From an uncultured Gemmatimonadaceae bacterium (GTDB lineage: Bacteria > Gemmatimonadota > Gemmatimonadetes > Gemmatimonadales > GWC2-71-9), in contig CAYUYF010000016.1 of assembly GCA_964449145.1 (NCBI GenBank), positions 3,104 through 67,103 on the forward strand: DNA of 64,000 nt, given 5' to 3'. A program made the translations under genes and the position numbers. The notes below the pieces were generated by a model. That model ran no database searches. It saw only the letters and a program-made list of their open reading frames with translations, and was not told where the DNA came from. Numbering within the stretch: position 1 is the first letter of the stretch; each line of letters opens with the position of its first letter. This document shows, piece by piece, positions 1 through 37,409 of the stretch.

Positions 1-128
1 TCGAGGTCCTGGTCCGCATCGAATTGCAGTTCGCTCTGGGGATGGCGGCCGATGCTGATGTATGCCTGGCCGAAGATGCAGGTCTGGCCGGCACGAGGAC
101 CGGACAGGAACGTGAACTGCGCCTTCAT
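1..128 (-). CDS. FHA domain-containing protein, 5' part only (runs off the left edge)
   Basis: Not in the ORF track. Manual translation from ATG at 128: MKAQFTFLSGPRAGQTCIFGQAYISIGRHPQSELQFDADQDLD. Has the FHA 'IGR' motif and directly follows the PP2C gene. Confidence 0.75.
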   Translation of the reverse strand, partial: MKAQFTFLSGPRAGQTCIFGQAYISIGRHPQSELQFDADQDL

Positions 129-150
129 GGCGCGATGCCCGGGGGCGGGT

Positions 151-1170
151 TCAACGGTTTCCCAGCAGGAAGAAGAGCGCCACCGCCAGGGCAAACAGCG
201 CCAGCGCGCCCACCAGACCCCAGCGGGTCCCCGCCTGCTGGCTGAGCGGCACCGGAGCCGGGCTCCCGGTATAGACGGGCACCGGCTCGGTGGTCGCCTC
301 TCCTTCACTCAGCGGATACACCTGGTGGCCGACACCGGCTTCGGCGTCCGGCTCCGGCAGGCCCGCCCCGCCGAAGCGCGCCGCGACGGCCGTGATATTG
401 TCGGGGCCGCCCCGCTCGTTGGCGAGGGTCACCAGCTGGCTGCACAGTTCCACCAGGTCGGGAGTGGCGTTGACCAGGTCGCCGATCTCGTCCCGCTTGA
501 CCTGGCCCGAGAGCCCGTCAGAGCAGAGCACCAGCACGTCGCCCTTGCGGAGCGCCTGCCAGGTCAGGTCTACCTTGACCCGTGGATCGGGCCCCAGGGC
601 CTGGAGGATGATGTTCCGCCGCTCACTCTGCTCGGCTTCTTCCTCGGTGAGTTCGCCCGCTTCCACCAGGCGCTGCATCAGCGACTGGTCCTTGGTGATC
701 TGGGTGGCACTGCCGCGGCGGACCAGGTACGCCCGGCTGTCTCCCACCTGGGCCAGGTAGAGGTCGGTGCCGAAGACGCCGGCGACGGTGGCGGTGGTGC
801 CCATTCCGCGGACCTCGGGATGCTCGCGGGCGTGGGTGTTGATGCGCTGGTTGGCGAGTTCCACCGCCTCCTTCATCCGGTAGGCGAATCGCTGTGCGCT
901 GACCTCGGTGTCCTGCGCCCAGGCGGTGGACATATGGGTGAAGATCGAATCCGCGGCCATCTTGCTGGCCACCTCGCCGGCGGCGGCGCCACCCATGCCG
1001 TCGGCCACCATGAAGAGCGAGCCCCGCTCCCCGACCTCGTGCTCGCGGACCTCGGGCTGCAGGCTGGCAACCTTGCGCGACAGATCCGCCACGAGGAAGG
1101 TGTCCTCGTTGTGGTCGCGCGTGCGGCCCAGGTCGGTCTTGCCGAAGACGGAGATGTGGACGGTCGCCAA
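151..1170 (-). CDS. PP2C/PPM-family Ser/Thr protein phosphatase with C-terminal TM helix (PstP/PrpC-like)
   Basis: Motifs RDHNED, VADGMGG, VGDSRAY, LCSDGL, GGPDNIT; hydrophobic C-terminus WGLVGALALFALAVALFFLLG; TTG start with GAGGT upstream. Confidence 0.93.
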   Translation of the reverse strand: MATVHISVFGKTDLGRTRDHNEDTFLVADLSRKVASLQPEVREHEVGERGSLFMVADGMGGAAAGEVASKMAADSIFTHMSTAWAQDTEVSAQRFAYRMKEAVELANQRINTHAREHPEVRGMGTTATVAGVFGTDLYLAQVGDSRAYLVRRGSATQITKDQSLMQRLVEAGELTEEEAEQSERRNIILQALGPDPRVKVDLTWQALRKGDVLVLCSDGLSGQVKRDEIGDLVNATPDLVELCSQLVTLANERGGPDNITAVAARFGGAGLPEPDAEAGVGHQVYPLSEGEATTEPVPVYTGSPAPVPLSQQAGTRWGLVGALALFALAVALFFLLGNR

Positions 1171-1176
1171 GAGACC

Positions 1177-2862
1177 TCAGGGGTTTACGAGCTGTTTCAG
1201 TCGGTCGACCAGCGCCTGTCCCGCGGTAGTCGGTCGAAGATCCTGCGAGCGCTGCGCCCAAAGCAATGCCTCGGGGTACTGCTTGTCTTCCTGCCGTGCC
1301 ACCGCCACCATGTTCGCGGCGAGCGCACGAATTGAATCTGTCACATCGCGGCGCCGGAAGACAGCTTCCGCCGCCAGTCGGGCCCGATCGCGCGTCGCGG
1401 GCTCGAAGACGTCCTCGACATCGGGCAGTGTGACGGCCGTCACGGGTGGGTCGACTGGCACCGGCGGTCTGGCCGAGTCCCGACCTCCCGTCGGCCTCGG
1501 AGGTGGGTCCGTTCCGGGGCGTCCGCCGCCGGTATCGGGCTTCACGGGCGTCCCGCCCGGCGTCGTCCCCGGATTGGTCCCGGGATTGGTGGTCGACCCG
1601 TTGGCCTGGCTGGCCTGCGTATCCGGCGGGATCACCACCATCTGGGCTGAGTCCAGGCTGGGACTTGGGAACAACGTCCCCTTGAGCGCCACCGCCCCGC
1701 CGCCGATGGCCAGCAGCACTGCGCCGGCCGCCACGGGCACTACCGGAAACCCGCGGCGGGGTTTCTCCACCGCCACCTGGGCCGTGGGGGCCGGCGGCGG
1801 GGATGGCGGCGTCCGCCGTCCCACCGCCGGGTCCACCCGCGTCGCCGGCACCATTTTCTTGAGGTCGTCGGCCTTGACCACCTGGGTCCCGGCCTCGACA
1901 TCCACCAGTCCCGTGCTGGCCTGGGCCACCGCCTTGACGTCCCGCCCGAACTCCGCCGCCGAGGCATAGCGGTCGGCCGGCATGCGGGCCAGCACCCGGT
2001 CCAGCACCCGCTGCAGTTCCGCCGGAAAGCGCACTTCGGGTCGCGCCTCGGCCAGCGGCACCGGGTCGTCGGTGAGCCGCTTGATCATCGTCTCCTGCTG
2101 GCTGTCGGCAGGGAAGGGCGTGGCTCCAGTCAGCATCCGGTAGAACACCAGGCCCAGCGAGTAGATATCGCTCCGGCCATCCACCGGGTCGCCGGAGAGC
2201 TGTTCCGGGCTCATGTACTCCGGGGTGCCCACGACGAAGCCGGTCTTGGTGACCTTCTGCTCCCCCGCGTCCCCGCCGACCGCCTTGGCGATCCCGAAGT
2301 CCACCACCTTCACGGTGTCCTTCCCACGGGCGGTGACGACCATGATGTTGTCGGGCTTGAGGTCCCGGTGCACGATGCCGAACTCGTGCGCGGCCTGCAG
2401 TGCGTCGGCCGACTGCTGGATCATGACCGCGGCCCGGGGCAGCGGGAGGGTGCCCACTTCCTCCAGGAGGTCGGTCAGGCTCTTCCCCTCGATGAATTCC
2501 ATCGCGAGGTAGATGAGCCCCTCGCTGGTCTCGCCGAAGTCGTAGATGGCGCAGACGTTGGCGTGGTTGATCCGGCTGGCGTTGGCGGCTTCCCGATTGA
2601 AACGGGAGATGGCGTCCGGATCGGACATCGAGCCCGGCGTCATGATCTTGATGGCGCACTGGCGGCCCATCTTTACATGCTCGGCCAGGTAGACCTGGCC
2701 CATGCCGCCCTCGCCCAGCTTCTTGGTGATGTGGTATCGGTCGGCGATCACCTGATTGACCAGATCGGTGGAGGCCCCCGAATTCCGGAGTGGGGTGCCG
2801 TCCCGCTGGCAGAACAGCTGGTCGTCGCCGTACTCGGCGCTGCAGGTGGTACAGACCTTCAT
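1177..2862 (-). CDS. Hanks-type Ser/Thr protein kinase (N-terminal Zn-ribbon-like motif, TM, Pro/Gly/Thr-rich external tail)
   Basis: LGEGGMGQVY, AIK, HRDLKPDN, DFG, GTPEYMSPE; N-terminal CTTC...FCQRDG; TM VVPVAAGAVLLAIGGGAVAL. Confidence 0.95.
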   Translation of the reverse strand: MKVCTTCSAEYGDDQLFCQRDGTPLRNSGASTDLVNQVIADRYHITKKLGEGGMGQVYLAEHVKMGRQCAIKIMTPGSMSDPDAISRFNREAANASRINHANVCAIYDFGETSEGLIYLAMEFIEGKSLTDLLEEVGTLPLPRAAVMIQQSADALQAAHEFGIVHRDLKPDNIMVVTARGKDTVKVVDFGIAKAVGGDAGEQKVTKTGFVVGTPEYMSPEQLSGDPVDGRSDIYSLGLVFYRMLTGATPFPADSQQETMIKRLTDDPVPLAEARPEVRFPAELQRVLDRVLARMPADRYASAAEFGRDVKAVAQASTGLVDVEAGTQVVKADDLKKMVPATRVDPAVGRRTPPSPPPAPTAQVAVEKPRRGFPVVPVAAGAVLLAIGGGAVALKGTLFPSPSLDSAQMVVIPPDTQASQANGSTTNPGTNPGTTPGGTPVKPDTGGGRPGTDPPPRPTGGRDSARPPVPVDPPVTAVTLPDVEDVFEPATRDRARLAAEAVFRRRDVTDSIRALAANMVAVARQEDKQYPEALLWAQRSQDLRPTTAGQALVDRLKQLVNP

Positions 2863-3776
2863 CCGATCTCCACCCGGATCATCTGATCTCCCACCAGCAA
2901 CCGCCCGTTCGGCCCCACCCGCCGCTCGCCCCGGACGGCCACTGCCACACCATTGCGGCTACCCGCGTCCAACAGCACGAAGTCGGCGTCCTCGCTGCGG
3001 ATCAGCGCGTGCAGGGCGCTCATCGAGGAGTCGAAGGGGAACTGCCAGTCCCCCTGCTCGCGGCCGATGCGGACGCTCCGTCCGGGTGAGAGATGCATGA
3101 TGTCGCGCGGGCTCCCGTCGGCGCGGATCTGGGCAATGTTGGCAATGTCCGCCGCGGGGGTGAGGCTGCCGAGCCGCCGGGTCTGGTCCTGCTCCGGCGG
3201 GCGCGGGCCGGGATAGCCCAGGCGCCGATACCGGAAGATCTGGCTGCCGCAGAGGATCTGGTCGCCGTCGGTGAGCCGGTGGGCTTCTTCCAGGTAGAGC
3301 CAGGTGCCGTTCTTGCTGCCCAGGTCTCGCACCGTCAGGATGCCGTCCACGAACAGGAACTGGGCGTGCATGGGGGAGAGGTACTCGTCGTCGGCGAAGT
3401 TGATGTCCGCACCAGCCCGCCCGACGGTGGTCACCGCACTGTGAATGGGAAAGCGGTGCGCCACCTCTCCCGTGCGGTCCAGCAGCGCCAGGTGCGCCTG
3501 TCCAGGCGGCGGCGCGGGCTTGGAGGTGCCGGGAACCAGCGGCTGTGGGCCGGTGTCCCCGAAGGTGTGGCCGCACGCCGGACAGAACTTGAAGCCTTGG
3601 TCGTTCATCCGGCCGCAACGGCTGCACGCATGGGCCGCGCGCGCCTGAGAGAGGCGGGCGCCACACCGGCCGCAGAAGGGCAGGTCGGCGCCCACCGGCG
3701 TGTTGCAGGAGGGACAGCGAACCGAACTGCCGGCCTCCGCGACTTCGAGCCGAGGGTCAGGTGCTGGAGTAGCCAT
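2859..3776 (-). CDS. Double zinc-ribbon plus tandem FHA domain protein
   Basis: CPSC..CGRC and CSRC..CPAC ribbons; FHA motifs VGR..YLSPMHA..GSKNGT and IGR..SMSALHA..GSRNG; ATGA-type overlap with the kinase; GAGGT RBS. Confidence 0.88.
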   Translation of the reverse strand: MATPAPDPRLEVAEAGSSVRCPSCNTPVGADLPFCGRCGARLSQARAAHACSRCGRMNDQGFKFCPACGHTFGDTGPQPLVPGTSKPAPPPGQAHLALLDRTGEVAHRFPIHSAVTTVGRAGADINFADDEYLSPMHAQFLFVDGILTVRDLGSKNGTWLYLEEAHRLTDGDQILCGSQIFRYRRLGYPGPRPPEQDQTRRLGSLTPAADIANIAQIRADGSPRDIMHLSPGRSVRIGREQGDWQFPFDSSMSALHALIRSEDADFVLLDAGSRNGVAVAVRGERRVGPNGRLLVGDQMIRVEIG

Positions 3777-3964
3777 TACACCTCATGGGGCTGGGACGCC
3801 GTCTGGCCGCTACCCAGCACGCGCCGAATGCTGGACGATACGGTGATCCTCGGGTGTGCTGGAATCGGGAAGCACGAAGACGTGTACTCCAATCTAGGAA
3901 TCGGGGGTGAGAGCGTCAACGGATGATTTGGCGTAAGTATTGGTGCCCGTGTACCTTGCAGCCC

Positions 3965-5986
3965 ATGTCCGACCCCGGCCACTGGCTTTTCTCGGCCCTC
4001 CTGCTCCTGGCGGCGGCCTGCGCAGCCGGTCCGGGACCCACCACCGCCGCAAGAACTCCACCCGTTGAGGGACCCGCCAGCGGGCCGCCGAGCCCGGTGA
4101 TCGGTCTGGCAGCCGATAGCGGCCTCCCCCCGGTTGACACCATATCGGGGCCGATCCGGCTGCGGGTGGTCTACCCCTTGGCCACGGACCGAATAGACGT
4201 CCGCGATTCTACCTTCATCTTCGGTTCTACCGGAACCGGTGAAGCCACGCTGGCTGTCAATGGGCGGCCGGTTGCCGTGGCCCCCAACGGCGCCTGGTTG
4301 GCCTGGGTGGGGGTCCCGGAGGATTCGGTGATCGACTTTGCGGTCACCGCGCATACCGCCACCGACTCCGCCACGCTCGTCCACAGCGTGGCGCGGGCCC
4401 GGCGGTTCAAGGTGCCTGGGGCACCGGTGTGGATCGACTCACTCTCTTTCTCCCCTGCAAGCCAGGCCTGGTGGCCGGCCGGGGAGTATCTCCCGCTCAG
4501 CATCCGGGCCAGCGAAGGAGCCACGGTTCGGCTGCTCCTGCCCGACGGGACCGTGGTCCCGCTGAGTCCGGCCGTCCCGCCCGACGACGTCCCATGGGGG
4601 ATCCGGGCCTTTGACCGCGACACCGCGAATCTCCTGGTCTCCAACCGTGCCGGGCGGTACACCGGTGTGATCCGCGGGGTGCCCCTGGGCGAGCAGCGCA
4701 CGCCACTCCTCGGGCCGGTCCCGCCGGAGGCTCCCCTCCCAGTGGCAGCGCCGAGGCGCCGAGGCCCCCAGGTGCCGACCGTCCTCGCCATTCTGGGCCA
4801 CGATACCGCCCGCGCCAGTTGGCCGCTGAACCTGCGGCTGCTGGATTCGATCCCACCCGTGGTCCAGTTTGATGATGACACGGCCCGCCTCGGGGATACC
4901 GACAGCCTCACCGTGGGGCGGTCGCGTCCCGGCGCGACCTACCACTGGTTCTTCCCCACCGGCACCCGCGCCGTTGCCACCGGTCGTCTGGGCGATGATC
5001 TCCGGATTCGGCTCTCCCGGGGTCAGGAGGCCTGGGTCTCCGCGGCCGACGCCCAGTTGCTGCCGCCGGGCACCTCCGCGTTCCGGTCCACGGTGGGTTC
5101 CATCACCATGACCCCGCTGCCTGACCGCCTCCAGCTCCGCATTCCGCTGGGTGGCCGGGTACCGTTTCGCATGGAGGAGGAGCCGTCTCGACTCACCATC
5201 CGGCTGTACAACGCCGTCGGCGACATCAACTGGACCCGCTATGGGGCCAGCGACCGGTATCTGCGGGATGTCAGATGGTTGCAGGCCACCGACGACGAAG
5301 TGACGATCACCATCGATGTGACGGGTCCCATCTGGGGATACCGGACTCGCTGGAGCCGGACCGATCTGGTTGTGGACCTGCGACGGCCGCCGGACATTGA
5401 CGCCGACCGACCCCTGGCCGGGCGGATGGTCCTGGTGGACCCGGGCCACCCACCGCTGGGCGCGACCGGGCCAACCGGGCTCAGGGAAGCAGAGGCCAAC
5501 CTCGCCGTGGCGCTGCAGCTGCAACTGCTGCTGGAAGAGCAGGGTGCCACCGTGGTGCTCACCCGCACGACCGACGCCCCGCTGGACCTCTGGCCGCGGG
5601 TGCGGATGGCCGACAGTCTTGCCCCCGATTTGCTGGTCTCGGTTCACAACAACGCCCTGCCGGACGGAGTGAATCCGTTCACCAACAACGGCTCCAGCGT
5701 TTTCTATAACCACCCGCGGAGCCTGCCGCTGGCGCGGGCAATTCAGCGGCAGCTGGTCCGTCGGCTGGGACTTCAGGACCTGGGAGTCGGGCGCGGCGAC
5801 CTGGCGCTGGTCCGCCCCACCTGGATGCCCGCCGTGCTTACCGAAGGCCTGTTCATGATGGTCCCGGAACAGGAGGCGGCGCTTCGGACCGAAACGGGTC
5901 AGCGGCGCTACGCCATGGCCATCCGTGATGGTATTACCGATTGGCTCCGGGATGTGGCGCTGGGGCGCCGGACAGACGTCCCCTAG
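3965..5986 (+). CDS. N-acetylmuramoyl-L-alanine amidase (Amidase_3), probable lipoprotein with AMIN-like middle region
   Basis: C-terminal LVDPGH, EAEANL, SVHNNA, LTEG zinc-amidase motifs; lipobox-like LLLLAAAC; start placed at ATG 3965 rather than 3923. Confidence 0.88.
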   Translation: MSDPGHWLFSALLLLAAACAAGPGPTTAARTPPVEGPASGPPSPVIGLAADSGLPPVDTISGPIRLRVVYPLATDRIDVRDSTFIFGSTGTGEATLAVNGRPVAVAPNGAWLAWVGVPEDSVIDFAVTAHTATDSATLVHSVARARRFKVPGAPVWIDSLSFSPASQAWWPAGEYLPLSIRASEGATVRLLLPDGTVVPLSPAVPPDDVPWGIRAFDRDTANLLVSNRAGRYTGVIRGVPLGEQRTPLLGPVPPEAPLPVAAPRRRGPQVPTVLAILGHDTARASWPLNLRLLDSIPPVVQFDDDTARLGDTDSLTVGRSRPGATYHWFFPTGTRAVATGRLGDDLRIRLSRGQEAWVSAADAQLLPPGTSAFRSTVGSITMTPLPDRLQLRIPLGGRVPFRMEEEPSRLTIRLYNAVGDINWTRYGASDRYLRDVRWLQATDDEVTITIDVTGPIWGYRTRWSRTDLVVDLRRPPDIDADRPLAGRMVLVDPGHPPLGATGPTGLREAEANLAVALQLQLLLEEQGATVVLTRTTDAPLDLWPRVRMADSLAPDLLVSVHNNALPDGVNPFTNNGSSVFYNHPRSLPLARAIQRQLVRRLGLQDLGVGRGDLALVRPTWMPAVLTEGLFMMVPEQEAALRTETGQRRYAMAIRDGITDWLRDVALGRRTDVP

Positions 5987-6044
5987 CCCGAGAGCAAGCC
6001 TGGCCCGCCCGGGCCCGTTACCGTCCCATTCGATATCGAGCGCA

Positions 6045-8282
6045 ATGCCCCTGGTGTCCCATCCCTGCTTCCGCACCCTCGCCCTGCTCGGGCTCCTGGG
6101 CCTCGTCCCGGCCCCGGCGGTCCAGGCGCAGTCGCCCGGGGACCGCCTTGCCCTGCGGACCTTCCGCGATTCGCTCGCTGCCGCCAACGACAGCGTTTCC
6201 CTGCTGGGCCTCGAACAACAGCTCATCGCGGTGGCCAAGGCGGATCGTAACAACGCCATGCGACACCTGCGGCTTGGCTTCGTGGCCCAGCGACTCGGGG
6301 AGCTGGGGAGCGATCGCCGCTTCGAGGATGCCGCCGGCGAGTTCGAGTGGGCCACCGAACTCGAGCCCACCTGGCCGTGGGCCTGGTTCGGGCTGGGCCT
6401 CGCCGAGGACCGGGTCGGGGACTCCCAGGTGGCGCTGGTGTCGGGGCTGCAGGCGATGTTCGGCAAGGACCACCTCTCCCGGGCCGCCAACGCCTACGCC
6501 CGCTCCGTGCAGGCCGACTCGTCGTTTGTGCTCGGCCTCGTCGAGCTGGCCTCGACCGCTCTCCGCCAGCGGGTCAACATCAAGACCGATCTGGCCCGCG
6601 AGGCCCTCCGCCAGGCCGCCGCCACCTCCGCCGCCGCCAATCCGGAGGTGTTGCTCTACCGTGGGCGGGTGGAGCGGGAGGTGGGGGACATCGACTCGGC
6701 GCATGCCGCCTTCAGCGGCTATCTCGATCGTGGCGGGCACCGGGGACTGGGTCTGCTGGAGCTGGCCCGCACCCGCTTCCTGCGCGGCACCTTGGACGGG
6801 GCGCAGGCCTACTTCGATGGCGCCGGCATCGACGATACGCTCTCGGTCCGGGAATACCGCGCCGACCTGGCCCTGATCGCCAACGACAGCGCTCTGGCCG
6901 AGTTCGACTTCAGCGCCGGGACCAGGCGGCAGGAATTCCTGCGCCGGTTCTGGTCCCAGCGCGACCGGGGCGCGTTGCTGGCCGACGGCGAGCGGCTCCG
7001 GGAACACTACCGGCGCCTGTACTATGCCCGCGCCAACTTCCGGCTGGTCAGCCGGAACCGTCACTACGACATCGTCGAACGCTTTCGTTCCGGCAGCCGC
7101 GATTATGACGATCGCGGCATCATCTATCTCCGCCACGGGGAACCCACCCGCCGCGCCAACTACAACGCGCCGGGTATGAAGCTCAACGAGTCGTGGCAGT
7201 ACGAGCGGGCCAGTGGCGACCTGATCTTCCACTTTGTCGCCAGCGAGGACGTTCAGGATTTCAAGCTGGTGGAGAGTGTCTTCGACATCCTCGGCTTCAG
7301 TGAGGCGGTGGCGCTCCGAGGGGACCGTGACGCGGCCGCTTCCGGCTCTCGCGCCAACGAGCTGATCCTCTCCCGCGAGCGGTTCTCCCCCATCTACAGC
7401 CAGCTGCTCACCTCCGGCCGGGCCGGATCGCAAAAGTACTTCACCGACGAGCGCAGCATCGGTCGACGGAGCATTTCGGTGGGGACCCGCACCGACAGCT
7501 ACGAACTCACCTACGCCACCCGCCTCCGGCTGCAGACGGGCGTGGTGGTCGTCGGCCGGGATTCCACCGGCAGCCTTCTGCACGTCACCTATGCCATTCC
7601 CGGCTCGGCGCTCCGGGAGGTGCCGTCGCAGCGGGGGCACCTGTATCCGGTGCGACTCAGGCTCACGATCACCGATCAGACCGGCAGGCCCGTCGGCCAG
7701 GTGGACACGACCCGTCTGTTCGTGGCCCAGGAGCCGGTGCCGGCCCGGGAGCACCTGGTGGGGCGGATCGCGGTGCCGGTCATCCCGGGCCGCCTGCAGT
7801 ACCGCCTCGCGGTGGAGCAGGGCGACGAGAACGGCGTGGTCCTCGCCGCCGACACCATCAGTGCCGGGGATTTCTCCGGGGGACGCTTCGACCTCAGCGG
7901 GATCGTGCTCGGCGCCCGGGAAGCCAACCTGACCTGGCGTCCGTCGCCCGAGGATACCGTCTGGTTCAACCCGCTCGGCCGTTTCCGGCAGGCCAACGCC
8001 ATGGAGGTGTACTACGAGGTGTACGGCCTCACTGCGGGTGAGCAGGTTCACACCGAGTTGCTGATCACCAAGCAGGGTGGTGGCGGCTTCCTCGGACTCT
8101 TCGGGTCACGCAAGCCCGCCATCCGGCTGGCCTTCGATGAAGCTGCCGAAGCCCGGGTGACCCGGGTGCACCGGACGGTGTCGCTGGAGAAGCTCGACAC
8201 CGGGCGGTACTGGATCGAGGCGGTCGTCAAGGATCCGGACGGGTCCGAGCGGAAGAGCCGCACCGGCTTCGAGGTCCGCTAG
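6045..8282 (+). CDS. GWxTD-domain protein (signal peptide, TPR-like helical N-terminus, beta-rich C-terminus)
   Basis: EFLRRFWSQRD...EHYRRLYYARANF...DYDDRGIIYLRHGEP...ESWQY matches the GWxTD domain layout; signal peptide LALLGLLGLVPAPAVQAQ; start placed at ATG 6045. Confidence 0.8.
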   Translation: MPLVSHPCFRTLALLGLLGLVPAPAVQAQSPGDRLALRTFRDSLAAANDSVSLLGLEQQLIAVAKADRNNAMRHLRLGFVAQRLGELGSDRRFEDAAGEFEWATELEPTWPWAWFGLGLAEDRVGDSQVALVSGLQAMFGKDHLSRAANAYARSVQADSSFVLGLVELASTALRQRVNIKTDLAREALRQAAATSAAANPEVLLYRGRVEREVGDIDSAHAAFSGYLDRGGHRGLGLLELARTRFLRGTLDGAQAYFDGAGIDDTLSVREYRADLALIANDSALAEFDFSAGTRRQEFLRRFWSQRDRGALLADGERLREHYRRLYYARANFRLVSRNRHYDIVERFRSGSRDYDDRGIIYLRHGEPTRRANYNAPGMKLNESWQYERASGDLIFHFVASEDVQDFKLVESVFDILGFSEAVALRGDRDAAASGSRANELILSRERFSPIYSQLLTSGRAGSQKYFTDERSIGRRSISVGTRTDSYELTYATRLRLQTGVVVVGRDSTGSLLHVTYAIPGSALREVPSQRGHLYPVRLRLTITDQTGRPVGQVDTTRLFVAQEPVPAREHLVGRIAVPVIPGRLQYRLAVEQGDENGVVLAADTISAGDFSGGRFDLSGIVLGAREANLTWRPSPEDTVWFNPLGRFRQANAMEVYYEVYGLTAGEQVHTELLITKQGGGGFLGLFGSRKPAIRLAFDEAAEARVTRVHRTVSLEKLDTGRYWIEAVVKDPDGSERKSRTGFEVR

Positions 8283-8322
8283 GGCACCTCCGTCGTCCGC
8301 GCCGGGACCGCTGGATCGCGGC

Positions 8323-8352
8323 TTGACTGCCTCATGTTGAGCCACCTACTGT
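8323..8352 (+). promoter_or_regulatory. sigma70-type promoter for kinase 2 (probably leaderless mRNA)
   Basis: TTGACT(8323-8328)-N18-TACTGT(8347-8352)-N6-ATG(8359); no Shine-Dalgarno. Confidence 0.55.
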
Positions 8353-8358
8353 TCGACC

Positions 8359-10404
8359 ATGTTCTGTTCCCGCTGCGGAACCGAGGTACAGCAGGCCTCC
8401 CAGTTCTGCCCCACCTGCGGGCTCGATCTCCGCGCCAGCGCCCCCGTTCCGGCCATCGGCGCCGCCGATGTCTCCGAGTTGGACCTCGTCCGCGAGGCCA
8501 TGGCGGCCGAGTACGAGCTGGTTGAGGAGCTCGGCCGCGGCGGCATGGCGGTGGTCTACCGGGCCCGGGAGACCCACCTGGAGCGGGAAGTCGCGGTCAA
8601 GGTCCTGCCGTTCTCGCTGGCCTTCGACGCCGACTTCGTTGAGCGCTTTACCCGCGAAGCCCGCACTGCCGCCCAGTTGGAACACCCCAACATCATCCCC
8701 ATCTATCGGGTCGGCAAATCGGGGCGGGTGATCTACTTCGTGATGAAGTACCTGCGGGGAGGCTCGCTGTCGCGGGTCATGCACGAGCGGAAACGGCTGG
8801 ACCCGCCGGAGATCCGCAAGCTGCTGCTGGATGTGGGAAGCGCGCTGGGCTATGCCCACAAGCGCGGCATCGTGCATCGGGACGTCAAGCCCGACAACGT
8901 CATGTTCGATGAACATGGCCTGTGCATCGTCACCGACTTCGGCATCGCCAAGGCGGGCACCAAGTCGCGGCTGACCGGCACCGGCATGGCCATCGGGACG
9001 CCGCACTACATGTCGCCAGAGCAGGCCCGGGCCCAGAACATCGACGGCCGCAGCGACCTCTACAGCCTGGGCATCGTGGCATACCAGGCGCTGGTCGGCG
9101 AGTTGCCCTACGACGGGGAGGACAGCTTCGCCATCGGCTACAAGCACATCATGGAACCGATTCCGGTCCCGCTGCTGGATACTCCCGATGAGCGGCGGCT
9201 GTTCGAGGTCATCAAGCGGCTGATGATGAAGGACCCCTTCGACCGCTTCCAGGCGGCGGAAGACCTGGTCGCCGCCCTCTCCGGTCAGCCCCAGGCGGCG
9301 ATGTTCGCCAGTCAGGTGCCCTCCAGCAGCGGACGGCGGCTCTCCCAGGCGCAGGCGGCCATGGCGGTGCAGTCCACCACACCGCTCCCCGCGGTGCAGA
9401 CGCCGCGCTCGCCGCTGCCGCCGACCCCGGCGTTCTCCTCCCCTCGACCGAGCCAGGCGCTGGAGGTGGATACCCCCAGGCGGCCGGTGATGCGCCGCTC
9501 CGTGGCGGCGGCCACGCCAGCGCGTTCGGGGGGCTGGGTCCAGTGGTTCATGGCCCTGGTGGTCCTCGGGGGTTTCGTGGCTGGGGGGTGGTACCTCTAC
9601 AAGGAAGGCCTGCTGGGCGGGCACCCGCCGGTCGAGGAGGTGCCGGCCCCGCAGGACAACGGTCCAGCCGCGGTGGGTGGAGAAGGCGGGGTCGGCCAGC
9701 CGGCGCCCACGGCCGACGTTCCTGCGGACGACTTCGGCCTCACGCCCCAAAACCAGCCGGTGAGCGCACCGACGCTGAGCGGTGGAGCGGCACTCAGCTC
9801 GCCGGCCGCCCCCGTGGCCCGGGATAGCGGGATTCTCCTGCTCCGGGGACTCCCGGCCGGGTCGCAGGTCATGATCGACGGCGCCCAGCTCGCCCAGACC
9901 AGCCCCCGGATCCCGCTGCCAGCCGGCGGCCATGAGGTGGGAGTTCTGGCGCGCGGCTTCCCCTTCTTCACGGACAGCGTGGTCATTGTGGCGGGGCAGA
10001 CCCTGACCTACACCCCGAATCTCGGCACGCCCCCCAGGGCGCTCGTCGCCTCCGATTCCGCCGTGCAGGCCTGGCGCCGGACCCTGGCCGCCCTGGATTG
10101 CGACAATCCGAAGCTGAGCAACCGGTTCGGTGCCAGCTGCTACGACCAGCGGCCGCTGCTGCAGTCCAGCAGGGTCCCGATCCCGCCGGGGGTAAACGGA
10201 GTTCCGCCGGCGGTTCGGCTGATCGTCAAGGTCTCCAGCCAAGGCAAGACCCTCGCCATCAAGACGCCGCCGGCCGCGGGCGATCCGGTCTTCATCCGCG
10301 CGGTGGAGGCGTTCGCCCTCACCGTCCGCTGGACTCCGGCCCAGCGGGCCGGTGAGCCGGTGGATGGCTGGACCCAGGTGGTCTTCCAGCCCGACGTGCC
10401 GTGA
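8359..10404 (+). CDS. Ser/Thr protein kinase: Zn-ribbon, kinase, TM, PEGA-like and TonB-C-like domains
   Basis: MFCSRC..CPTC; LGRGGMAVVY, AVK, HRDVKPDN, DFG, GTPHYMSPE; TM WFMALVVLGGFVAGGWYL; GILLLRGLPAGSQVMIDG (PEGA-like); C-terminal VRLIVKVSSQG...AVEAFALTVRWTPAQRAGEPVDGWTQVVF (TonB-C-like). Confidence 0.9.
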   Translation: MFCSRCGTEVQQASQFCPTCGLDLRASAPVPAIGAADVSELDLVREAMAAEYELVEELGRGGMAVVYRARETHLEREVAVKVLPFSLAFDADFVERFTREARTAAQLEHPNIIPIYRVGKSGRVIYFVMKYLRGGSLSRVMHERKRLDPPEIRKLLLDVGSALGYAHKRGIVHRDVKPDNVMFDEHGLCIVTDFGIAKAGTKSRLTGTGMAIGTPHYMSPEQARAQNIDGRSDLYSLGIVAYQALVGELPYDGEDSFAIGYKHIMEPIPVPLLDTPDERRLFEVIKRLMMKDPFDRFQAAEDLVAALSGQPQAAMFASQVPSSSGRRLSQAQAAMAVQSTTPLPAVQTPRSPLPPTPAFSSPRPSQALEVDTPRRPVMRRSVAAATPARSGGWVQWFMALVVLGGFVAGGWYLYKEGLLGGHPPVEEVPAPQDNGPAAVGGEGGVGQPAPTADVPADDFGLTPQNQPVSAPTLSGGAALSSPAAPVARDSGILLLRGLPAGSQVMIDGAQLAQTSPRIPLPAGGHEVGVLARGFPFFTDSVVIVAGQTLTYTPNLGTPPRALVASDSAVQAWRRTLAALDCDNPKLSNRFGASCYDQRPLLQSSRVPIPPGVNGVPPAVRLIVKVSSQGKTLAIKTPPAAGDPVFIRAVEAFALTVRWTPAQRAGEPVDGWTQVVFQPDVP

Positions 10405-10910
10405 CCCAGCCGCAGATCCACCCCACGGCCTTCATTGCCCCCGGCGCCATGGTCATGGGCGATGTTCACCTGGCAGAAGAATCGAGCGTCTGGTACACCG
10501 CGGTCCTCCGGGGCGACATGGCCCCGATCCGGATCGGCAGCCAGACCTGCCTCCAGGACGGGACCATCGTCCACGTGGATCATGAGATCCCCTGCCTCAT
10601 CGGCAATCGGGTGGGGGTCGGGCACCGGGCCATCCTTCACGGGTGCACGGTGGAGGATGACTGCCTCATCGGCATGGGGGCGATCCTGCTCAACCGGGTC
10701 CACGTGGGGCGGGGCAGCGTCATCGCGGCCGGAGCGCTGCTGACCGAAGGTCTGCGGATCCCACCCCGGTCGCTGGTCATGGGCATGCCCGGCAAGGTCG
10801 TCCGGGAAGTCAGCGACGCACTCGCCCGTCGGATCGAGCATACCTGGCGGCACTACATCGAGCAGGCTCGGGCCCATCGGTCGGGGCAGTTTCCGGCGGT
10901 GGGTGGTTAG
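10401..10910 (+). CDS. Gamma carbonic anhydrase family protein (YrdA/PaaY-like)
   Basis: Hexapeptide repeats; three metal His (IVH, VGH, ILHG); GTGA overlap with the kinase stop. Confidence 0.92.
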   Translation: MTQPQIHPTAFIAPGAMVMGDVHLAEESSVWYTAVLRGDMAPIRIGSQTCLQDGTIVHVDHEIPCLIGNRVGVGHRAILHGCTVEDDCLIGMGAILLNRVHVGRGSVIAAGALLTEGLRIPPRSLVMGMPGKVVREVSDALARRIEHTWRHYIEQARAHRSGQFPAVGG

Positions 10911-11020: not shown

Positions 11021-11150
11021 ATTCCGAGGCTCTTGGCGGCGAGCGCATTCGTTCCTAGCTTTGACACCGGTTTCTCCTCCTGTTGACCTCGCGTTACCAC
11101 ATTATAGTTCTGGTGTTACACACTCCTCGCCTCGGCATCAGGGACGGGTC

Positions 11151-13682
11151 ATGACGACTTCCGGCAATTCCCACACGCTCGATCTTTCGGCCAACGCCAT
11201 CACGGTCCTGGAAAAGCGTTACCTCATCAAAGACGACCAGGGCAAGCCGACCGAGTCGGCGGTGGACCTCTTCTGGCGGGTGGCGCGGACCATCGCCGAG
11301 CCGGACCGGAAGTACGGGGCGTCGGCGGGGGCCACCGAGGCGCTGGCAGAGGCCTTCTTCGGGCTCATGGGACACCGGATGTTCATGCCCAACAGCCCCA
11401 CTCTAATGAATGCCGGCCGGCCCCTCGGCCAGCTGTCGGCCTGCTTCGTCCTGCCGGTGGAGGACACCCTCTCCAATGGCCGGGATGGGATCTACGACAC
11501 CCTGCGGGCGATGGCGCTGGTGCACCAGTCGGGCGGCGGCACCGGGTTCGGCTTCTCCCGGCTGCGGCCCCAGAACGACATCGTCCGGTCCACTATGGGG
11601 GTGGCCAGCGGCCCGGTCTCGTTCATGAGCCTCTATGACGCCTCCACCGATGTCGTCAAGCAGGGCGGCACCCGCCGGGGGGCCAACATGGGCATCCTCC
11701 GGGTGGACCATCCGGACATCATGGAGTTTGTCACCTGCAAGGACGACACGACCAAGATCACCAACTTCAACATCTCGGTGGCGGTCACCGACGCATTCAT
11801 GGCGGCGGTGGACGCCGACAGCGCATACGATCTCATCCACCCCAAGACCAAGCAGGTCGTCGGGCAGCTCCAGGCCCGGCAGGTATGGAACCGGATCATC
11901 CACGGCGCCTGGAAGACCGGTGAGCCGGGGATCTTCTTCATCGACCGCGCCAATCACTACAATCCGGTGCCGCACCTGGGGGCCTACGAGGCCACCAACC
12001 CCTGTGGCGAGCAGCCGCTCCTGCCCTACGACGTCTGCAACCTCGGCTCGGTGAACGTCGGGTACTTCGTGAAGGACGGCCAGGTCGACTGGGACCAGAT
12101 GCGCCAGGTCATCCACCTCTCGACCCACTTCCTCGAGAACGTCATTGACGCCAACAACTACCCGCTCCCGGAGATCGACCACCTCTCCAAGCGGATCCGG
12201 CGCATCGGCCTCGGCGTGATGGGCCTGGCCGATCTCCTCATCAAGCTGGGGATCGCCTACGACAGCGAAGCGGGCGTCGAGATGGGCCGGAAGATCATGG
12301 CCTTCGTGGACGAGGAGTCCAAGGTGGAGTCGGAGCGGCTGGCGACGCAGCGCGGCGTTTTCACCGAGTGGGAGCAGAGCATCTGGGGTCCGGACGCCAC
12401 CTGCGCCCGCGATCCCCAGGGCAACCGGATCCGGCCCATGCGCCGGCTCCGCAACTGCAACGTCACCACCGTCGCGCCCACCGGCACCATTTCGATCATC
12501 GCCGGCTGCAGCTCGGGGATCGAGCCGCTCTTCGCCGTCGCCTTCATGCGCAACCAGGCCGGCGTGCTCATGCCGGACGTGAACGAGGACTTCGTGGCGA
12601 TCGCCCAGCGGGAGGGGTGGTATTCCGAGGCCCTCATGACGCAGATCGCCGAGTCCGGCAACATCCATTTCCCCGAGGTGCCGGAGAAGTGGCAGCGGGT
12701 CTTCGCCACCGCCAACGAGATCAAGCCGGAGTGGCACATCCGGATGCAGGCGGCGTTCCAGGCGCATAACGACAGCGCCATCTCCAAGACCTGCAATTTC
12801 GCCAACGACGCCACCGAGGAGTACGTCGAGGAGATCTACCGCCTCGCCTTCTCGCTCAACTGCAAGGGCGTCACCGTCTACCGCGACGGCAGCCGGGACA
12901 TGCAGGTGCTCTCCACCGGCTCCACCGCCCGGAAGGTGGCGGAGCAGGCCACCAGCAGCGGCAAGGCGGAGGCCCGCTCGGACCTGGTCATGCAGCCCGC
13001 CGGCGCCCCCGCGCGGGCCGACGCGGCGGATCTCTACGGGGAGATCGCGGAGGTCCGGGCCGAGAACGAGCGGCTCCGGAAGCTGGTGCTCGACCTCGAG
13101 GCGGAGAACCTGCAGCGCCGCCAGAAGCGCTCCCGGCCGGACATGCTCCGCGGCACCACCCGGCGCATCGAGACCCCCCTGGGGACGCTCTACGTCACCA
13201 TCACCGAGGACGACCGGGCCCAGCCGTTCGAGGTCTTCATGAGCCTCGGCAAGGCCGGCGGGGCCATCATGGCCGACGTCGAGGCGATGGGCCGGCTGAT
13301 CAGCCTGGCACTCCGCTCCGGCATTCCGCTCAAGGAGATCCACCGCCAGATCCGGGGCATCAGCTCCGATCGCGCCATCGGGCTCGGGCCCAACAAGGTG
13401 CTCTCGGTGCCGGATGCCGTCGGCATCGCGATTGAGCGGTGGATGCAGGAGAAGCAGGGGATCCAGCAGGAACTCCTCTCCAGCCACACCCCCGCGATGG
13501 GCACCCCGATTCCCACCGTGGCCCAGGTGCAACAGATCATGACCCAGGGCGGCGAGCAGTTCCAGCTGGTCAAGGAGCAGCAGCCGGTCCTCACCGGCGC
13601 CTGCCCGGACTGCGGGTCGCAGCTCGAGTTCGCCGAAGGATGCAACAAGTGCCACGTCTGCGGCTTCTCGGAATGCGGGTGA
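11151..13682 (+). CDS. nrdJ: Class II (adenosylcobalamin-dependent) ribonucleotide reductase with C-terminal TSCPD-like and Zn-ribbon domains
   Basis: PNSPTLMNAG, LSACFV, GGGTG, TNPCGEQ, CNLGS, APTGTIS, KGVTVYRDGSR; C-terminal CPDC...GCNKCHVCGFSEC; no ATP-cone; start placed at ATG 11151. Confidence 0.95.
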   Translation: MTTSGNSHTLDLSANAITVLEKRYLIKDDQGKPTESAVDLFWRVARTIAEPDRKYGASAGATEALAEAFFGLMGHRMFMPNSPTLMNAGRPLGQLSACFVLPVEDTLSNGRDGIYDTLRAMALVHQSGGGTGFGFSRLRPQNDIVRSTMGVASGPVSFMSLYDASTDVVKQGGTRRGANMGILRVDHPDIMEFVTCKDDTTKITNFNISVAVTDAFMAAVDADSAYDLIHPKTKQVVGQLQARQVWNRIIHGAWKTGEPGIFFIDRANHYNPVPHLGAYEATNPCGEQPLLPYDVCNLGSVNVGYFVKDGQVDWDQMRQVIHLSTHFLENVIDANNYPLPEIDHLSKRIRRIGLGVMGLADLLIKLGIAYDSEAGVEMGRKIMAFVDEESKVESERLATQRGVFTEWEQSIWGPDATCARDPQGNRIRPMRRLRNCNVTTVAPTGTISIIAGCSSGIEPLFAVAFMRNQAGVLMPDVNEDFVAIAQREGWYSEALMTQIAESGNIHFPEVPEKWQRVFATANEIKPEWHIRMQAAFQAHNDSAISKTCNFANDATEEYVEEIYRLAFSLNCKGVTVYRDGSRDMQVLSTGSTARKVAEQATSSGKAEARSDLVMQPAGAPARADAADLYGEIAEVRAENERLRKLVLDLEAENLQRRQKRSRPDMLRGTTRRIETPLGTLYVTITEDDRAQPFEVFMSLGKAGGAIMADVEAMGRLISLALRSGIPLKEIHRQIRGISSDRAIGLGPNKVLSVPDAVGIAIERWMQEKQGIQQELLSSHTPAMGTPIPTVAQVQQIMTQGGEQFQLVKEQQPVLTGACPDCGSQLEFAEGCNKCHVCGFSECG

Positions 13683-31475: not shown

Positions 31476-31477
31476 CG

Positions 31478-35268: not shown

Positions 35269-37409
<2,141 letters not shown>

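What the first reader, a model, noticed from the sequence alone, without database searches (positions are those of the whole stretch)
1..10404. Candidate trans-envelope phospho-signalling locus: kinase/PP2C/FHA operon divergent from amidase, GWxTD protein and TonB-C kinase
Seen: about 10 kb holding two Hanks kinases, a phosphatase, two FHA proteins, a lipoprotein peptidoglycan amidase and an exported GWxTD protein of unknown function, arranged around a 188-bp divergent gap (3777-3964). Known: Gram-positive PASTA kinases sense peptidoglycan; neither kinase here has PASTA repeats. Inference: a diderm alternative in which amidase activity or outer-envelope state is relayed by non-PASTA kinases, with the GWxTD protein as periplasmic partner. 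Caveat: kinase 2 has its own promoter, so adjacency need not mean co-regulation.
Basis: inference. Interest (0 to 1): 0.65.

Follow-up and report, generated by a model that had tools for sequence, protein, structure and literature searches.

The report
Conserved envelope kinase-amidase gene neighbourhood
A Gemmatimonadales genome keeps protein-kinase signalling genes next to a cell-wall-cutting enzyme and an exported protein of unknown function, an arrangement shared by many related species, which hints at but does not prove a cell-envelope sensing system.

Summary
The gene content is real. On the minus strand lies a tight operon: zinc-ribbon/double-FHA protein, Hanks kinase STK1, tail-anchored PP2C, and an FHA protein cut by the window edge. 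In a 92% relative that last protein is FHA-TM-trypsin-like protease. On the plus strand lie a lipoprotein Amidase_3, an exported TPR-GWxTD protein, Hanks kinase STK2 (PEGA plus TonB-C-like periplasmic end), a gamma-carbonic-anhydrase-like gene and class II ribonucleotide reductase.

In loci whose GWxTD protein is at least 50% identical, the amidase is upstream in 80/80, STK2 downstream in 64/64 and PP2C divergent in 68/71. The layout persists in lineages of 56-58% GC. Metatranscriptome contigs span the gene junctions.

The case for function is weaker:
- The conserved block also holds unrelated genes (reductase 45/45).
- Modules are lost independently. Clade B lacks STK1 and the FHA genes, and two lineages lack STK2.
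- A second GWxTD subfamily has no amidase or kinase nearby.

In several lineages PP2C sits next to peptidoglycan-recycling genes (MurQ, AnmK, NagZ, AmpG-like).

Verdict: a real, conserved envelope neighbourhood. The amidase-to-kinase relay is plausible but unproven. It is a new variant of a known kind.

The parts
1..128 (-). N-terminal 42 codons of an FHA protein, cut by the window edge. The full orthologue is a 488-aa protein with FHA, TM, coiled coil and a periplasmic trypsin-like serine protease.
   Evidence: Translation. It is 98% identical to L001:3945-4070. The full L001 protein has FHA at 63.6 bits and Trypsin_2 at 85.2 bits. The His/Asp/Ser triad motifs NRHV, DLALL and GSSGSP are present.
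151..1170 (-). PP2C Ser/Thr phosphatase with a C-terminal membrane anchor (aa 315-338).
   Evidence: Pfam PP2C/PP2C_2, and NCBIfam Stp1/IreP 237.8 bits against a cut-off of 230. Motifs RDHNED, DGMGG and GGPDN, and a hydrophobic tail. Divergent from the amidase in 68/71 loci.
1177..2862 (-). STK1, a bitopic Hanks kinase. It has an N-terminal CxxC, a kinase domain, a TM at aa 371-395, a Pro-rich linker and a periplasmic helical domain of about 90 aa with no known family.
   Evidence: Pkinase 172.9 bits. Motifs GEGGMGQV, HRDLKPDN and DFG. No Pfam hit on aa 392-561. Its start overlaps the stop of the upstream gene.
2859..3776 (-). Cytoplasmic protein with a double zinc ribbon and two FHA domains. 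It is the first gene of the minus-strand operon.
   Evidence: FHA 69 bits in 2 stretches, DZR and Zn_Ribbon_1. Four CxxC pairs. RNA contig 2755-3734 spans its junction with STK1.
3777..3964 (.). Divergent intergenic region, presumed to hold promoters for both operons.
   Evidence: Sequence. One weak sigma-70-like site on the minus strand at 3919-3891, no more than chance gives. No RNA contig covers 3735-4006, while both flanks are covered.
3965..5986 (+). Lipoprotein N-acetylmuramoyl-L-alanine amidase. An N-terminal region of about 470 aa has no known family. The C-terminal Amidase_3 domain (aa 489-658) is of the CwlV/LytH type, without the AmiA/B/C regulatory insertion.
   Evidence: Amidase_3 124.2 bits. 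One-stretch matches to CwlV 1jwq, 5emi, 4rn7 and LytH 7tj4, but two-stretch matches to AmiA and AmiC. Zn and catalytic motifs DPGH, EAEAN, SVHNNA and TEGLF. Lipobox Cys19 is invariant.
6045..8282 (+). Exported GWxTD-family protein. It has a signal peptide, a TPR superhelix (aa 30-331), a conserved alpha/beta GWxTD core (aa 355-482) and two beta-sandwich domains (aa 497-745).
   Evidence: TIGR04514 37.1 bits against a cut-off of 28. AF2 model with pLDDT 94.6 and pTM 0.91. Foldseek gives only generic TPR and tandem beta-sandwich matches. RNA contig 5370-6481 spans the amidase/GWxTD junction.
8359..10404 (+). STK2, a bitopic Hanks kinase. It has an N-terminal zinc ribbon, a kinase domain, a TM (about aa 389-411), a Pro-rich spacer, a PEGA domain (aa 492-552) and a TonB-C-like C-terminal domain (from about aa 590 to the C-terminus at aa 681).
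   Evidence: Pkinase 168.5 bits, Zn_Ribbon_1 and PEGA. TonB_C matched in 32/32 orthologues, and the top PDB profile hits are TonB 6i97, 6fip and 2k9k. TM seen. RNA contig 8102-8560 spans the GWxTD/STK2 junction.
10401..10910 (+). Gamma-carbonic-anhydrase-like hexapeptide-repeat protein. Its start overlaps the STK2 stop by 4 bp.
   Evidence: Hexapep 61.7 bits, and NCBIfam gamma-CA 173 bits, below the 250 cut-off. It follows STK2 in 56/56 loci. RNA contig 10344-10455 spans the junction.
11148..13682 (+). Class II (NrdJ-type) ribonucleotide reductase. It is the last gene of the conserved plus-strand block. The start is uncertain (TTG 11061 or ATG 11148).
   Evidence: Translation. Orthologues carry Ribonuc_red_lgN/lgC/TSCPD. 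Present downstream in 45/45 loci. RNA contig 10618-11140 runs from the gamma-CA-like gene into its leader.
13729..13763 (+). The only strong intrinsic-terminator-like hairpin in the first 14 kb. It closes the plus-strand block.
   Evidence: 14-pair stem with 11 G-C pairs.

Best explanation
This is an anciently conserved Gemmatimonadota cell-envelope neighbourhood made of two divergent transcription units.

Unit 1, minus strand, is shown by sequence to be a tight operon. It encodes a self-contained trans-membrane Ser/Thr signalling set:
- a cytoplasmic zinc-ribbon/double-FHA reader;
- the bitopic Hanks kinase STK1, with a small periplasmic domain;
- a tail-anchored PP2C that resets phosphorylation;
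- an FHA-TM-trypsin-like protein, whose cytoplasmic phospho-threonine reader is fused to a periplasmic protease. This offers an inside-out output.

Unit 2, plus strand, encodes:
- a lipoprotein peptidoglycan amidase of the unregulated CwlV/LytH type;
- an exported TPR-GWxTD protein, inferred to be its accessory or targeting partner, by analogy with amidase activators and TPR adaptors of wall hydrolases;
- STK2, whose periplasmic part copies TonB's build (TM, Pro-rich spacer, then PEGA and a TonB-C-like head) and so could reach the wall or outer membrane.

Inferred mechanism: the periplasmic domains of the kinases report envelope or peptidoglycan state. Phospho-threonine marks are read by the FHA proteins, and PP2C erases them. 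The outputs adjust wall turnover through the amidase/GWxTD pair, the protease and the recycling genes.

Shown: gene content, domain architectures, intact catalytic motifs, conserved linkage and transcription across the junctions.

Inferred: every functional connection between the units.

My sub-estimates:
- Unit 1 is one signalling module: 0.9.
- The amidase and GWxTD work together: 0.6.
- The kinases and PP2C act on or respond to the wall processes encoded next door: about 0.4.
For: - Domains and motifs.
- Operon structure of unit 1: a 4-bp overlap, then 6-bp and 22-bp gaps.
- Conserved linkage in loci with GWxTD at least 50% identical: amidase 80/80, STK2 64/64, PP2C 68/71.
- The full layout also occurs in 56-58% GC lineages where the reductase is only 70% identical and GWxTD 37-40%.
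- L165 packs amidase, GWxTD x2 and STK2 with gaps of 20, 2 and 3 bp. L171 also has the trio.
- PP2C lies beside MurQ-AnmK (L166-L168, L170) and beside an AmpG-like permease, NagZ, AnmK and MurQ (clade B).
- STK2's C-terminus is TonB-C-like and has two invariant cysteines.
- The amidase lacks the AmiA/B/C autoinhibitory insertion.
- RNA contigs span every plus-strand junction, and none crosses the divergent gap.
Against: - The conserved, apparently co-transcribed block also contains a gamma-CA-like gene and ribonucleotide reductase (56/56 and 45/45). GGT and GcpE sit at its edges. Synteny alone therefore does not single out the envelope genes.
- Modules come and go independently. Clade B lacks STK1, the zinc-ribbon FHA gene and the FHA-protease, and has an opposite-strand ORF between GWxTD and STK2. 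L170 lacks STK2 and the gamma-CA-like gene. L173/L174 lack the amidase, STK2 and the gamma-CA-like gene, yet keep PP2C, three GWxTD copies and the reductase.
- A second deep GWxTD subfamily lies between a PtsN-like EIIA gene and guaA, with no amidase, kinase or PP2C nearby.
- The amidase and GWxTD are exported, so neither can be a direct kinase substrate.
- No interaction, phosphorylation or phenotype data exist.
- The RNA evidence comes from unstranded assembled contigs of a near-identical strain.
Confidence: 0.42

Rival explanations
1. Positional synteny without functional coupling. The region is a slowly rearranging piece of the Gemmatimonadales chromosome that holds three unrelated units side by side. 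These are a general-purpose STK/PP2C/FHA signalling operon, a peptidoglycan amidase with its GWxTD accessory protein, and an STK2/gamma-CA-like/NrdJ unit. The kinases act on targets unrelated to the amidase or GWxTD.
For: - Unrelated genes (gamma-CA-like, NrdJ, GcpE, GGT) are conserved in the same order as strongly as the envelope genes.
- STK2 is translationally coupled to the gamma-CA-like gene, not to GWxTD.
- Clade B inserts an opposite-strand gene between GWxTD and STK2.
- STK1 and the FHA genes, STK2, and the amidase are each lost in some lineages while PP2C, GWxTD and the reductase stay.
Against: - Flanks outside the block do rearrange: the left flank differs between clades, and in the window synteny breaks right after the reductase.
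- Even so, the amidase-GWxTD-STK2 order survives to a GWxTD identity of 37%.
- L165 has gaps of 2-20 bp from the amidase through STK2.
- Signalling genes recur next to several different peptidoglycan genes (amidase, MurQ/AnmK, AmpG-like/NagZ).
- Both kinases and the FHA-protease have periplasmic domains.
Confidence: 0.38
2. STK2 belongs functionally with its downstream genes. Together with the gamma-CA-like protein it links envelope or growth state to deoxynucleotide supply (NrdJ) or cell-cycle progression. The amidase/GWxTD pair is merely upstream in the same transcript.
For: - The STK2 stop overlaps the start of the gamma-CA-like gene. The order STK2, gamma-CA-like gene, reductase is kept in all loci that have STK2 (56/56 and 45/45).
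- RNA contigs bridge STK2 to the gamma-CA-like gene, and that gene to the reductase leader.
- STK2 and the gamma-CA-like gene are lost together in L170 and L173/L174.
Against: - No known precedent was found in the searched literature.
- The reductase stays when STK2 and the gamma-CA-like gene are lost, so it does not depend on them.
- STK2's ectodomain points to an envelope cue, not a nucleotide cue.
Confidence: 0.1
3. The kinases are part of an anti-phage defence island (PD-T4-6 or MADS-type kinases), or of a type VI secretion threonine-phosphorylation switch (PpkA/PppA/Fha1).
For: Both kinase domains score strongly against PADLOC PD-T4-6 and mad6 models (E down to 4e-95). The combination of FHA, PP2C and a Hanks kinase is also the make-up of the T6SS switch.
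Against: - The PADLOC matches cover only the generic kinase domain. None of the other five proteins matched a defence-system partner of these kinases: four had no hit, and the FHA-protease had only weak matches over its protease domain.
- The NCBIfam MAD6 and PglW models are far below cut-off.
- The locus is a stable core-genome block in more than 100 loci, flanked by housekeeping genes, not a variable island.
- No T6SS genes were seen in the window's called ORFs or in the flanks of the related loci whose genes were listed.
Confidence: 0.03

Closest known systems
Actinobacterial fhaA-fhaB-pstP-rodA-pbpA-pknA-pknB cluster (Mycobacterium tuberculosis Rv0014c-Rv0020c), from established knowledge
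   Same: One operon combines FHA-domain proteins, a membrane-anchored PP2C phosphatase and transmembrane Hanks kinases. It sits with peptidoglycan genes and is conserved across a whole phylum.
   Different: - No PASTA repeats, and no RodA or PbpA in the operon.
- One FHA protein is fused to a periplasmic trypsin-like protease.
- The neighbouring wall gene is an exported amidase.
- The organism is a diderm.
PASTA kinase / PP2C pairs of Firmicutes (PrkC-PrpC, Stk1-Stp1, IreK-IreP)
   Same: The PP2C passes the NCBIfam Stp1/IreP model. The kinase domains are closest to the PknB/Stk1 model over its kinase half. A cell-wall link is suspected.
   Different: The defining PASTA ectodomain is absent. 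The ectodomains are a small helical domain in STK1 and PEGA plus a TonB-C-like domain in STK2.
TonB (energy transducer) C-terminal domain
   Same: STK2's periplasmic part has TonB's layout: a TM, a Pro-rich spacer and a C-terminal domain that matches TonB_C. TonB structures are the best PDB hits.
   Different: - The N-terminus is a zinc ribbon plus a Hanks kinase, not a short ExbBD-coupled anchor.
- No exbB or exbD genes are adjacent.
- The window protein's score is below Pfam's cut-off.
- Two invariant cysteines and a PEGA domain precede the TonB-C-like domain.
Dedicated partners of Amidase_3 enzymes (EnvC/NlpD with AmiA/B/C, ActH with LytH, GerS with CwlD) and the TPR adaptor NlpI, from established knowledge; LytH and CwlD structures appear among the PDB hits
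   Same: An Amidase_3 enzyme is encoded next to an exported accessory-like protein. The GWxTD protein has a long TPR superhelix, as ActH and NlpI have TPRs. The amidase domain matches LytH and CwlD end to end.
   Different: - The GWxTD protein has no LytM, GerS or rhomboid homology.
- The amidase lacks the autoinhibitory helix that EnvC and NlpD relieve.
- Partnership rests on adjacency only, and L174 has GWxTD without the amidase.
Pseudomonas aeruginosa T6SS threonine phosphorylation pathway (TagQRST-PpkA-PppA-Fha1), from established knowledge
   Same: A diderm trans-envelope Ser/Thr pathway. Periplasmic and outer-membrane accessory proteins feed a bitopic Hanks kinase, with an FHA reader and a PP2C eraser.
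   Different: No T6SS genes are present. The accessory proteins are unrelated, and the context is peptidoglycan turnover.

Membership tests
Hanks-type (eukaryote-like) Ser/Thr protein kinases | Pkinase fold with a Gly-rich loop, a VAIK-type Lys, the HRDxKxxN catalytic loop and DFG | tested here: met
   Pkinase 172.9 bits (STK1) and 168.5 bits (STK2). HRDLKPDN/DFG and VAVK/HRDVKPDN/DFG.
PASTA kinases (PknB/PrkC/Stk1) | Extracellular PASTA repeats after the TM segment | tested here: not met
   No PASTA hit in Pfam on the full proteins or on the isolated ectodomains. NCBIfam PknB_PASTA_kin scores 320 and 316 bits against a cut-off of 450, matching only model positions 2-356 of 563.
PP2C (PPM) phosphatases, Stp1/IreP family | PP2C fold with metal-binding Asp motifs, scoring above the curated cut-off | tested here: met
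   NCBIfam NF033484 237.8 bits against a cut-off of 230, plus Pfam PP2C and PP2C_2. Motifs RDHNED, DGMGG and GGPDN.
FHA-domain phospho-threonine readers | FHA domain above the Pfam threshold | tested here: met
   ZnFHA2 has FHA at 69 bits in 2 stretches. The FHA-protease orthologue L001 has FHA at 63.6 bits. The 42-aa fragment in the window is too short to score on its own.
Amidase_3 N-acetylmuramoyl-L-alanine amidases | Amidase_3 domain with the Zn ligands His/Glu/His and the catalytic Glu | tested here: met
   124.2 bits. Motifs DPGH, EAEAN, SVHNNA and TEGLF. CwlV 1jwq at E 7.9e-22.
AmiA/AmiB/AmiC-type division amidases | Autoinhibitory helix insertion in the catalytic domain, and for AmiC an AMIN targeting domain | tested here: not met
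   AmiA 8c2o and AmiC 4bin align in two stretches broken at the insertion, whereas CwlV and LytH align in one. AMIN was matched by 1 of 18 orthologues, only at E 0.075. The NCBIfam AmiA/B/C models are far below cut-off.
GWxTD domain family (TIGR04514) | Score above the curated domain cut-off, and the GWxTD motif | tested here: inconclusive
   37.1 bits against a cut-off of 28, and sources name the homologues 'GWxTD domain-containing protein'. The motif itself reads DYDDRG here and DDRG in the family consensus.
TonB C-terminal domain (PF03544) | TonB_C fold or sequence signature above threshold | tested here: inconclusive
   The window protein scores 15-17 bits against a cut-off of 24.6. Even so, 32/32 orthologues match at E<=1 (best 1.5e-7), 20/32 also match TonB_2, and the profile's three best PDB hits are TonB domains at E 0.003-0.008. 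No structure model of this domain was made.
TonB-ExbB-ExbD energy transduction system | N-terminal ExbBD-coupled anchor and linked exbB and exbD genes | tested here: not met
   The N-terminus is a zinc ribbon plus a kinase. No exbBD-like genes appear in the flanks of the window or of related loci.
Actinobacterial fha-pstP-rodA-pbpA-pknAB division/wall cluster | SEDS (RodA) and class B PBP genes inside the operon | tested here: not met
   The minus-strand operon is ZnFHA, STK1, PP2C and FHA-protease only. L166 and L167 show the same four genes.
Anti-phage kinase systems (PD-T4-6, MADS, BREX PglW) | Full-length match to a defence kinase, or partner genes, in a variable island | tested here: not met
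   PADLOC matches cover the kinase domain only. No other protein matched a partner of these defence kinase systems; the FHA-protease had only weak hits over its protease domain. NCBIfam MAD6 and PglW are far below cut-off. The locus is a stable core block.

The most novel reading that the evidence does not exclude
Gemmatimonadota use a PASTA-independent, trans-envelope Ser/Thr circuit.
- STK2 reaches the peptidoglycan or outer membrane with a TonB-like arm. Together with the TPR-GWxTD protein, it senses the products or state of the neighbouring lipoprotein amidase.
- STK1, the FHA readers and PP2C process the signal in the cytoplasm.
- The FHA-TM-protease sends it back out by cleaving periplasmic targets.

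This would be a two-way (outside-in and inside-out) wall-homeostasis loop in a diderm. It would also give the GWxTD domain family its first function.
Probability: 0.15. Interest if true: 0.8.

Novelty: new variant of a known kind. Interest (0 to 1): 0.5.

Why it matters
Wall-sensing by Hanks kinases is understood mainly through PASTA ectodomains of monoderm bacteria. How diderm phyla without PASTA kinases couple envelope state to Ser/Thr signalling is largely open. This locus offers concrete, conserved candidates:
- a Hanks kinase with a TonB-like periplasmic arm;
- an FHA reader fused to a periplasmic protease;
- a PP2C that stays next to peptidoglycan-turnover genes across a phylum;
- a large uncharacterised exported family (GWxTD), for which the paper library held no paper.

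A confident structure model of the GWxTD protein now exists for this family. If the coupling is real, it gives a testable model in cultivable Gemmatimonas. If not, it is still a useful annotation of a core-genome block and of two GWxTD subfamilies.

Tried and rejected
1. A profile search with distant GWxTD representatives returned almost only clade B proteins. It did not widen the taxon sampling.
2. The first metagenome scan attempt failed because the alignment had no conserved stretch. The second attempt mostly returned the other GWxTD subfamily.
3. The first AF2 run used 18 close sequences. It gave pLDDT 66, with the GWxTD core unmodelled. It was replaced by the 145-sequence run.
4. Foldseek against the PDB gave only generic TPR and tandem beta-sandwich hits (TM at most 0.24 on the query). 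This gave no functional lead for the GWxTD core.
5. Sequence searches of the amidase's 470-aa N-terminal region and of STK1's ectodomain found no family.
6. Rfam found nothing anywhere in the window, so there is no riboswitch before the reductase.
7. Promoter and terminator scans were at chance level, except for the hairpin after the reductase.
8. Looking up the window's own GWxTD protein to extend the contig leftwards found no record. L001 was used as a proxy.
9. I could not settle whether the EIIA/guaA-linked GWxTD subfamily co-exists in the same genomes as the amidase-linked one (paralogues) or replaces it.
10. The defence-island and T6SS readings were rejected (and the context calls).
11. 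Literature searches for GWxTD, for Hanks kinases with TonB, and for Gemmatimonas kinases found nothing relevant.

Full report
**Observation.**

The window has about 69% GC. Real genes stand out by third-position GC of 0.86-0.92.

On the minus strand there are four tightly packed genes:
- a protein with a double zinc ribbon and two FHA domains (2859-3776);
- Hanks kinase STK1 (1177-2862), whose start overlaps the previous stop;
- a PP2C phosphatase (151-1170), 6 bp further on;
- an FHA protein 22 bp further on, of which only 42 codons lie inside the window (128..<1).

Across a 188-bp gap, the plus strand carries:
- an Amidase_3 lipoprotein (3965-5986);
- an exported protein that passes the TIGR04514 GWxTD model (6045-8282);
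- a second Hanks kinase, STK2 (8359-10404);
- a gamma-carbonic-anhydrase-like gene that overlaps STK2's stop by 4 bp (10401-10910);
- a class II ribonucleotide reductase, followed by the only strong terminator-like hairpin (13729-13763).

Catalytic motifs of both kinases, the phosphatase and the amidase are intact. Neither kinase has PASTA repeats.

1. In L001, a 92% relative from a Gemmatimonadales MAG, the truncated FHA gene encodes a 488-aa protein. It has FHA, TM, coiled coil and a trypsin-like protease with a complete His/Asp/Ser triad. A cytoplasmic phospho-threonine reader is thus fused to a periplasmic protease.
2. STK2's periplasmic part consists of a Pro-rich spacer, a PEGA domain above Pfam's cut-off, and a C-terminal domain.
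   - In the window protein that domain scores only 15-17 bits for TonB_C.
   - It matches TonB_C in 32 of 32 orthologues (best E 1.5e-7).
   - The orthologue profile finds TonB C-terminal domains as its three best PDB hits.
   - Two cysteines are invariant.
   - 'TonB-C kinase' is therefore supported as a likeness, though not as a threshold-passing member.
3. The amidase catalytic domain aligns end to end with CwlV, LytH and similar enzymes. It aligns with AmiA/AmiC only in two pieces. It therefore lacks the autoinhibitory insertion of the division amidases. Its lipobox cysteine is invariant, and its N-terminal region of about 470 aa has no known relative.
4. With a 145-sequence alignment, the GWxTD protein folds confidently (pLDDT 94.6, pTM 0.91).
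   - The model has a TPR superhelix (aa 30-331), a conserved alpha/beta core carrying the family's near-invariant residues (EHYRR, DDRG, RHGEP, NESW, FHF), and two beta-sandwich domains.
   - Foldseek finds only generic TPR and tandem beta-sandwich matches, so the fold gives no function.

**Conservation.**

A scan of one genome per GTDB species found 399 loci encoding relatives. The best 80 all come from Gemmatimonadota MAGs, most labelled Gemmatimonadales. tblastn with the window's proteins shows two clades.

- *Clade A* (GWxTD at least about 60% identical, includes the window): FHA-protease, PP2C, STK1, ZnFHA <> amidase, GWxTD, STK2, gamma-CA-like gene, reductase.
- *Clade B* (53-57%): GGT, MurQ, AnmK, NagZ, an AmpG-like permease, PP2C <> amidase, GWxTD, a conserved opposite-strand 148-aa ORF, STK2, gamma-CA-like gene, reductase.

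Over all loci with GWxTD at least 50% identical and enough flank, the counts are:

| Neighbour | Loci with it / loci with enough flank |
|---|---|
| Amidase directly upstream | 80/80 |
| STK2 downstream | 64/64 |
| PP2C divergent | 68/71 |
| Gamma-CA-like gene | 56/56 |
| Reductase | 45/45 |

More distant lineages were reached through 50%-identity cluster representatives.

- L166-L169 (56-58% GC, reductase 70% identical, GWxTD 37-40%) have GGT, MurQ, AnmK, then the complete four-gene minus operon, then amidase, GWxTD, STK2, gamma-CA-like gene, reductase, GcpE.
- L165 has PP2C <> amidase, two GWxTD copies and STK2, with gaps of 20, 2 and 3 bp.
- L171 has amidase, GWxTD and STK2.
- L170 has PP2C <> amidase, three GWxTD copies and the reductase, but no STK2 or gamma-CA-like gene.
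- L173/L174 have PP2C <> three GWxTD copies and the reductase, with no amidase and no kinase.

A second deep branch of the family (36-42% identical) is always found in a different conserved context: a PtsN-like EIIA gene, then GWxTD, then guaA. None of the amidase, kinase or phosphatase genes lies within 10 kb.

**Expression.**

The sequence occurs in sludge and freshwater-sediment metagenomes. One sludge metatranscriptome holds 74% of its words. Its contigs cover both operons. They bridge these junctions:
- ZnFHA/STK1;
- amidase/GWxTD;
- GWxTD/STK2;
- STK2/gamma-CA-like gene;
- gamma-CA-like gene to the reductase leader.

No contig covers 3735-4006, the divergent gap. Depth is uneven, unlike the DNA run. 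These are unstranded assembled contigs, so they show read-through transcription but not transcript ends.

**Interpretation.**

The four-gene minus operon is, with high confidence, one trans-membrane Ser/Thr signalling module. It comprises a kinase, a phosphatase, two FHA readers and a periplasmic protease output.

The amidase and GWxTD genes are the most constant plus-strand pair. They plausibly work together, by analogy with the dedicated partners of other Amidase_3 enzymes and with TPR adaptors of wall hydrolases.

The recurrent placement of PP2C and the kinases next to several kinds of peptidoglycan genes gives a coherent envelope theme. Those genes are the amidase, MurQ/AnmK, and NagZ with the AmpG-like permease. 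The periplasmic domains of both kinases fit the same theme.

The evidence for a direct amidase-GWxTD-kinase relay is adjacency only, and it is diluted by four facts:
1. Unrelated genes are conserved and co-transcribed in the same block.
2. The modules are lost independently.
3. An opposite-strand gene separates GWxTD from STK2 in the largest clade.
4. A whole GWxTD subfamily lives without these neighbours.

I rate the coupled envelope-signalling reading at about 0.4 and plain positional synteny at nearly the same.

**Comparison with known systems.**

The closest parallels are:
- the actinobacterial fha-pstP-rodA-pbpA-pknAB cluster;
- the PASTA-kinase/PP2C pairs of Firmicutes;
- for a diderm trans-envelope layout, the T6SS threonine phosphorylation pathway.

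The defining features of each (PASTA repeats, SEDS/PBP genes, T6SS genes) were tested and are absent. This is therefore a new variant of Hanks-kinase envelope signalling rather than a member of any of them.

Strong PADLOC matches of the kinase domains to defence kinases are generic. Among the other proteins tested, only the FHA-protease had any match, weak hits over its protease domain to unrelated systems, and the locus is a stable core block.

The literature library held no paper mentioning GWxTD, and none that combines Hanks-type kinases with TonB.

**Limits.**

- No multimer prediction, whole-genome phyletic profile or experiment could be run.
- It is unresolved whether the two GWxTD subfamilies are paralogues within one genome.
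- The identification of the AmpG-like permease rests on MFS/Acatn hits and on context.

Noticed in passing
window 13893-46644: About 33 kb after the reductase is not syntenic with relatives. In many related loci the genes found at window 46651-50730 follow the reductase closely, which suggests an insertion or rearrangement in this genome. The region begins with a PadR regulator (13893-14225) and a 900-aa MacB/FtsX-type permease (14229-16931).
   Followed up: partly
window 25258-41627: A GlgE-pathway alpha-glucan cluster. It holds a TreS-maltokinase fusion (25258-28563, minus strand), another alpha-amylase-family protein (28560-31616, minus strand), an isoamylase/GlgX-like gene (35265-37544, minus strand) and GlgE (39633-41627, plus strand).
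   Followed up: partly
window 43147-46644 and 53385-55445: A 1165-aa DUF5916 protein, and a pyruvate kinase whose PK barrel starts only at residue 205. The ORF start was not checked, so this is either an N-terminal extension or a mis-called start.
   Followed up: no
L042:12247-12861, L047:12201-12647 and 35 other clade B loci: A conserved opposite-strand ORF of about 148 aa with no Pfam match lies between the GWxTD gene and STK2 in every clade B locus. It is 62-91% identical among them, apart from the query's own locus.
   Followed up: partly
L161:9545-12205, L162:9545-12205, L104, L110, L111, L146: The second GWxTD subfamily is preceded, 3 bp upstream, by a PTS_EIIA_2 (PtsN-like) gene. It sits in a conserved housekeeping block running Dus-AIRC-CorA-GGDEF ... 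guaA-proS-hisS-folC-accD-rodA.
   Followed up: partly
L170:14666-18304: The ribonucleotide reductase of this lineage carries an intein with a LAGLIDADG endonuclease domain. The same locus has three tandem GWxTD genes, the third split into 228-aa and 510-aa ORFs.
   Followed up: no
L001:1-2400: In clade A the gene beyond the FHA-protease is a large sensor protein that reads by eye as PAS-GGDEF-EAL (no family scan was run). It takes the place of the MurQ/AnmK recycling genes seen in other lineages.
   Followed up: no
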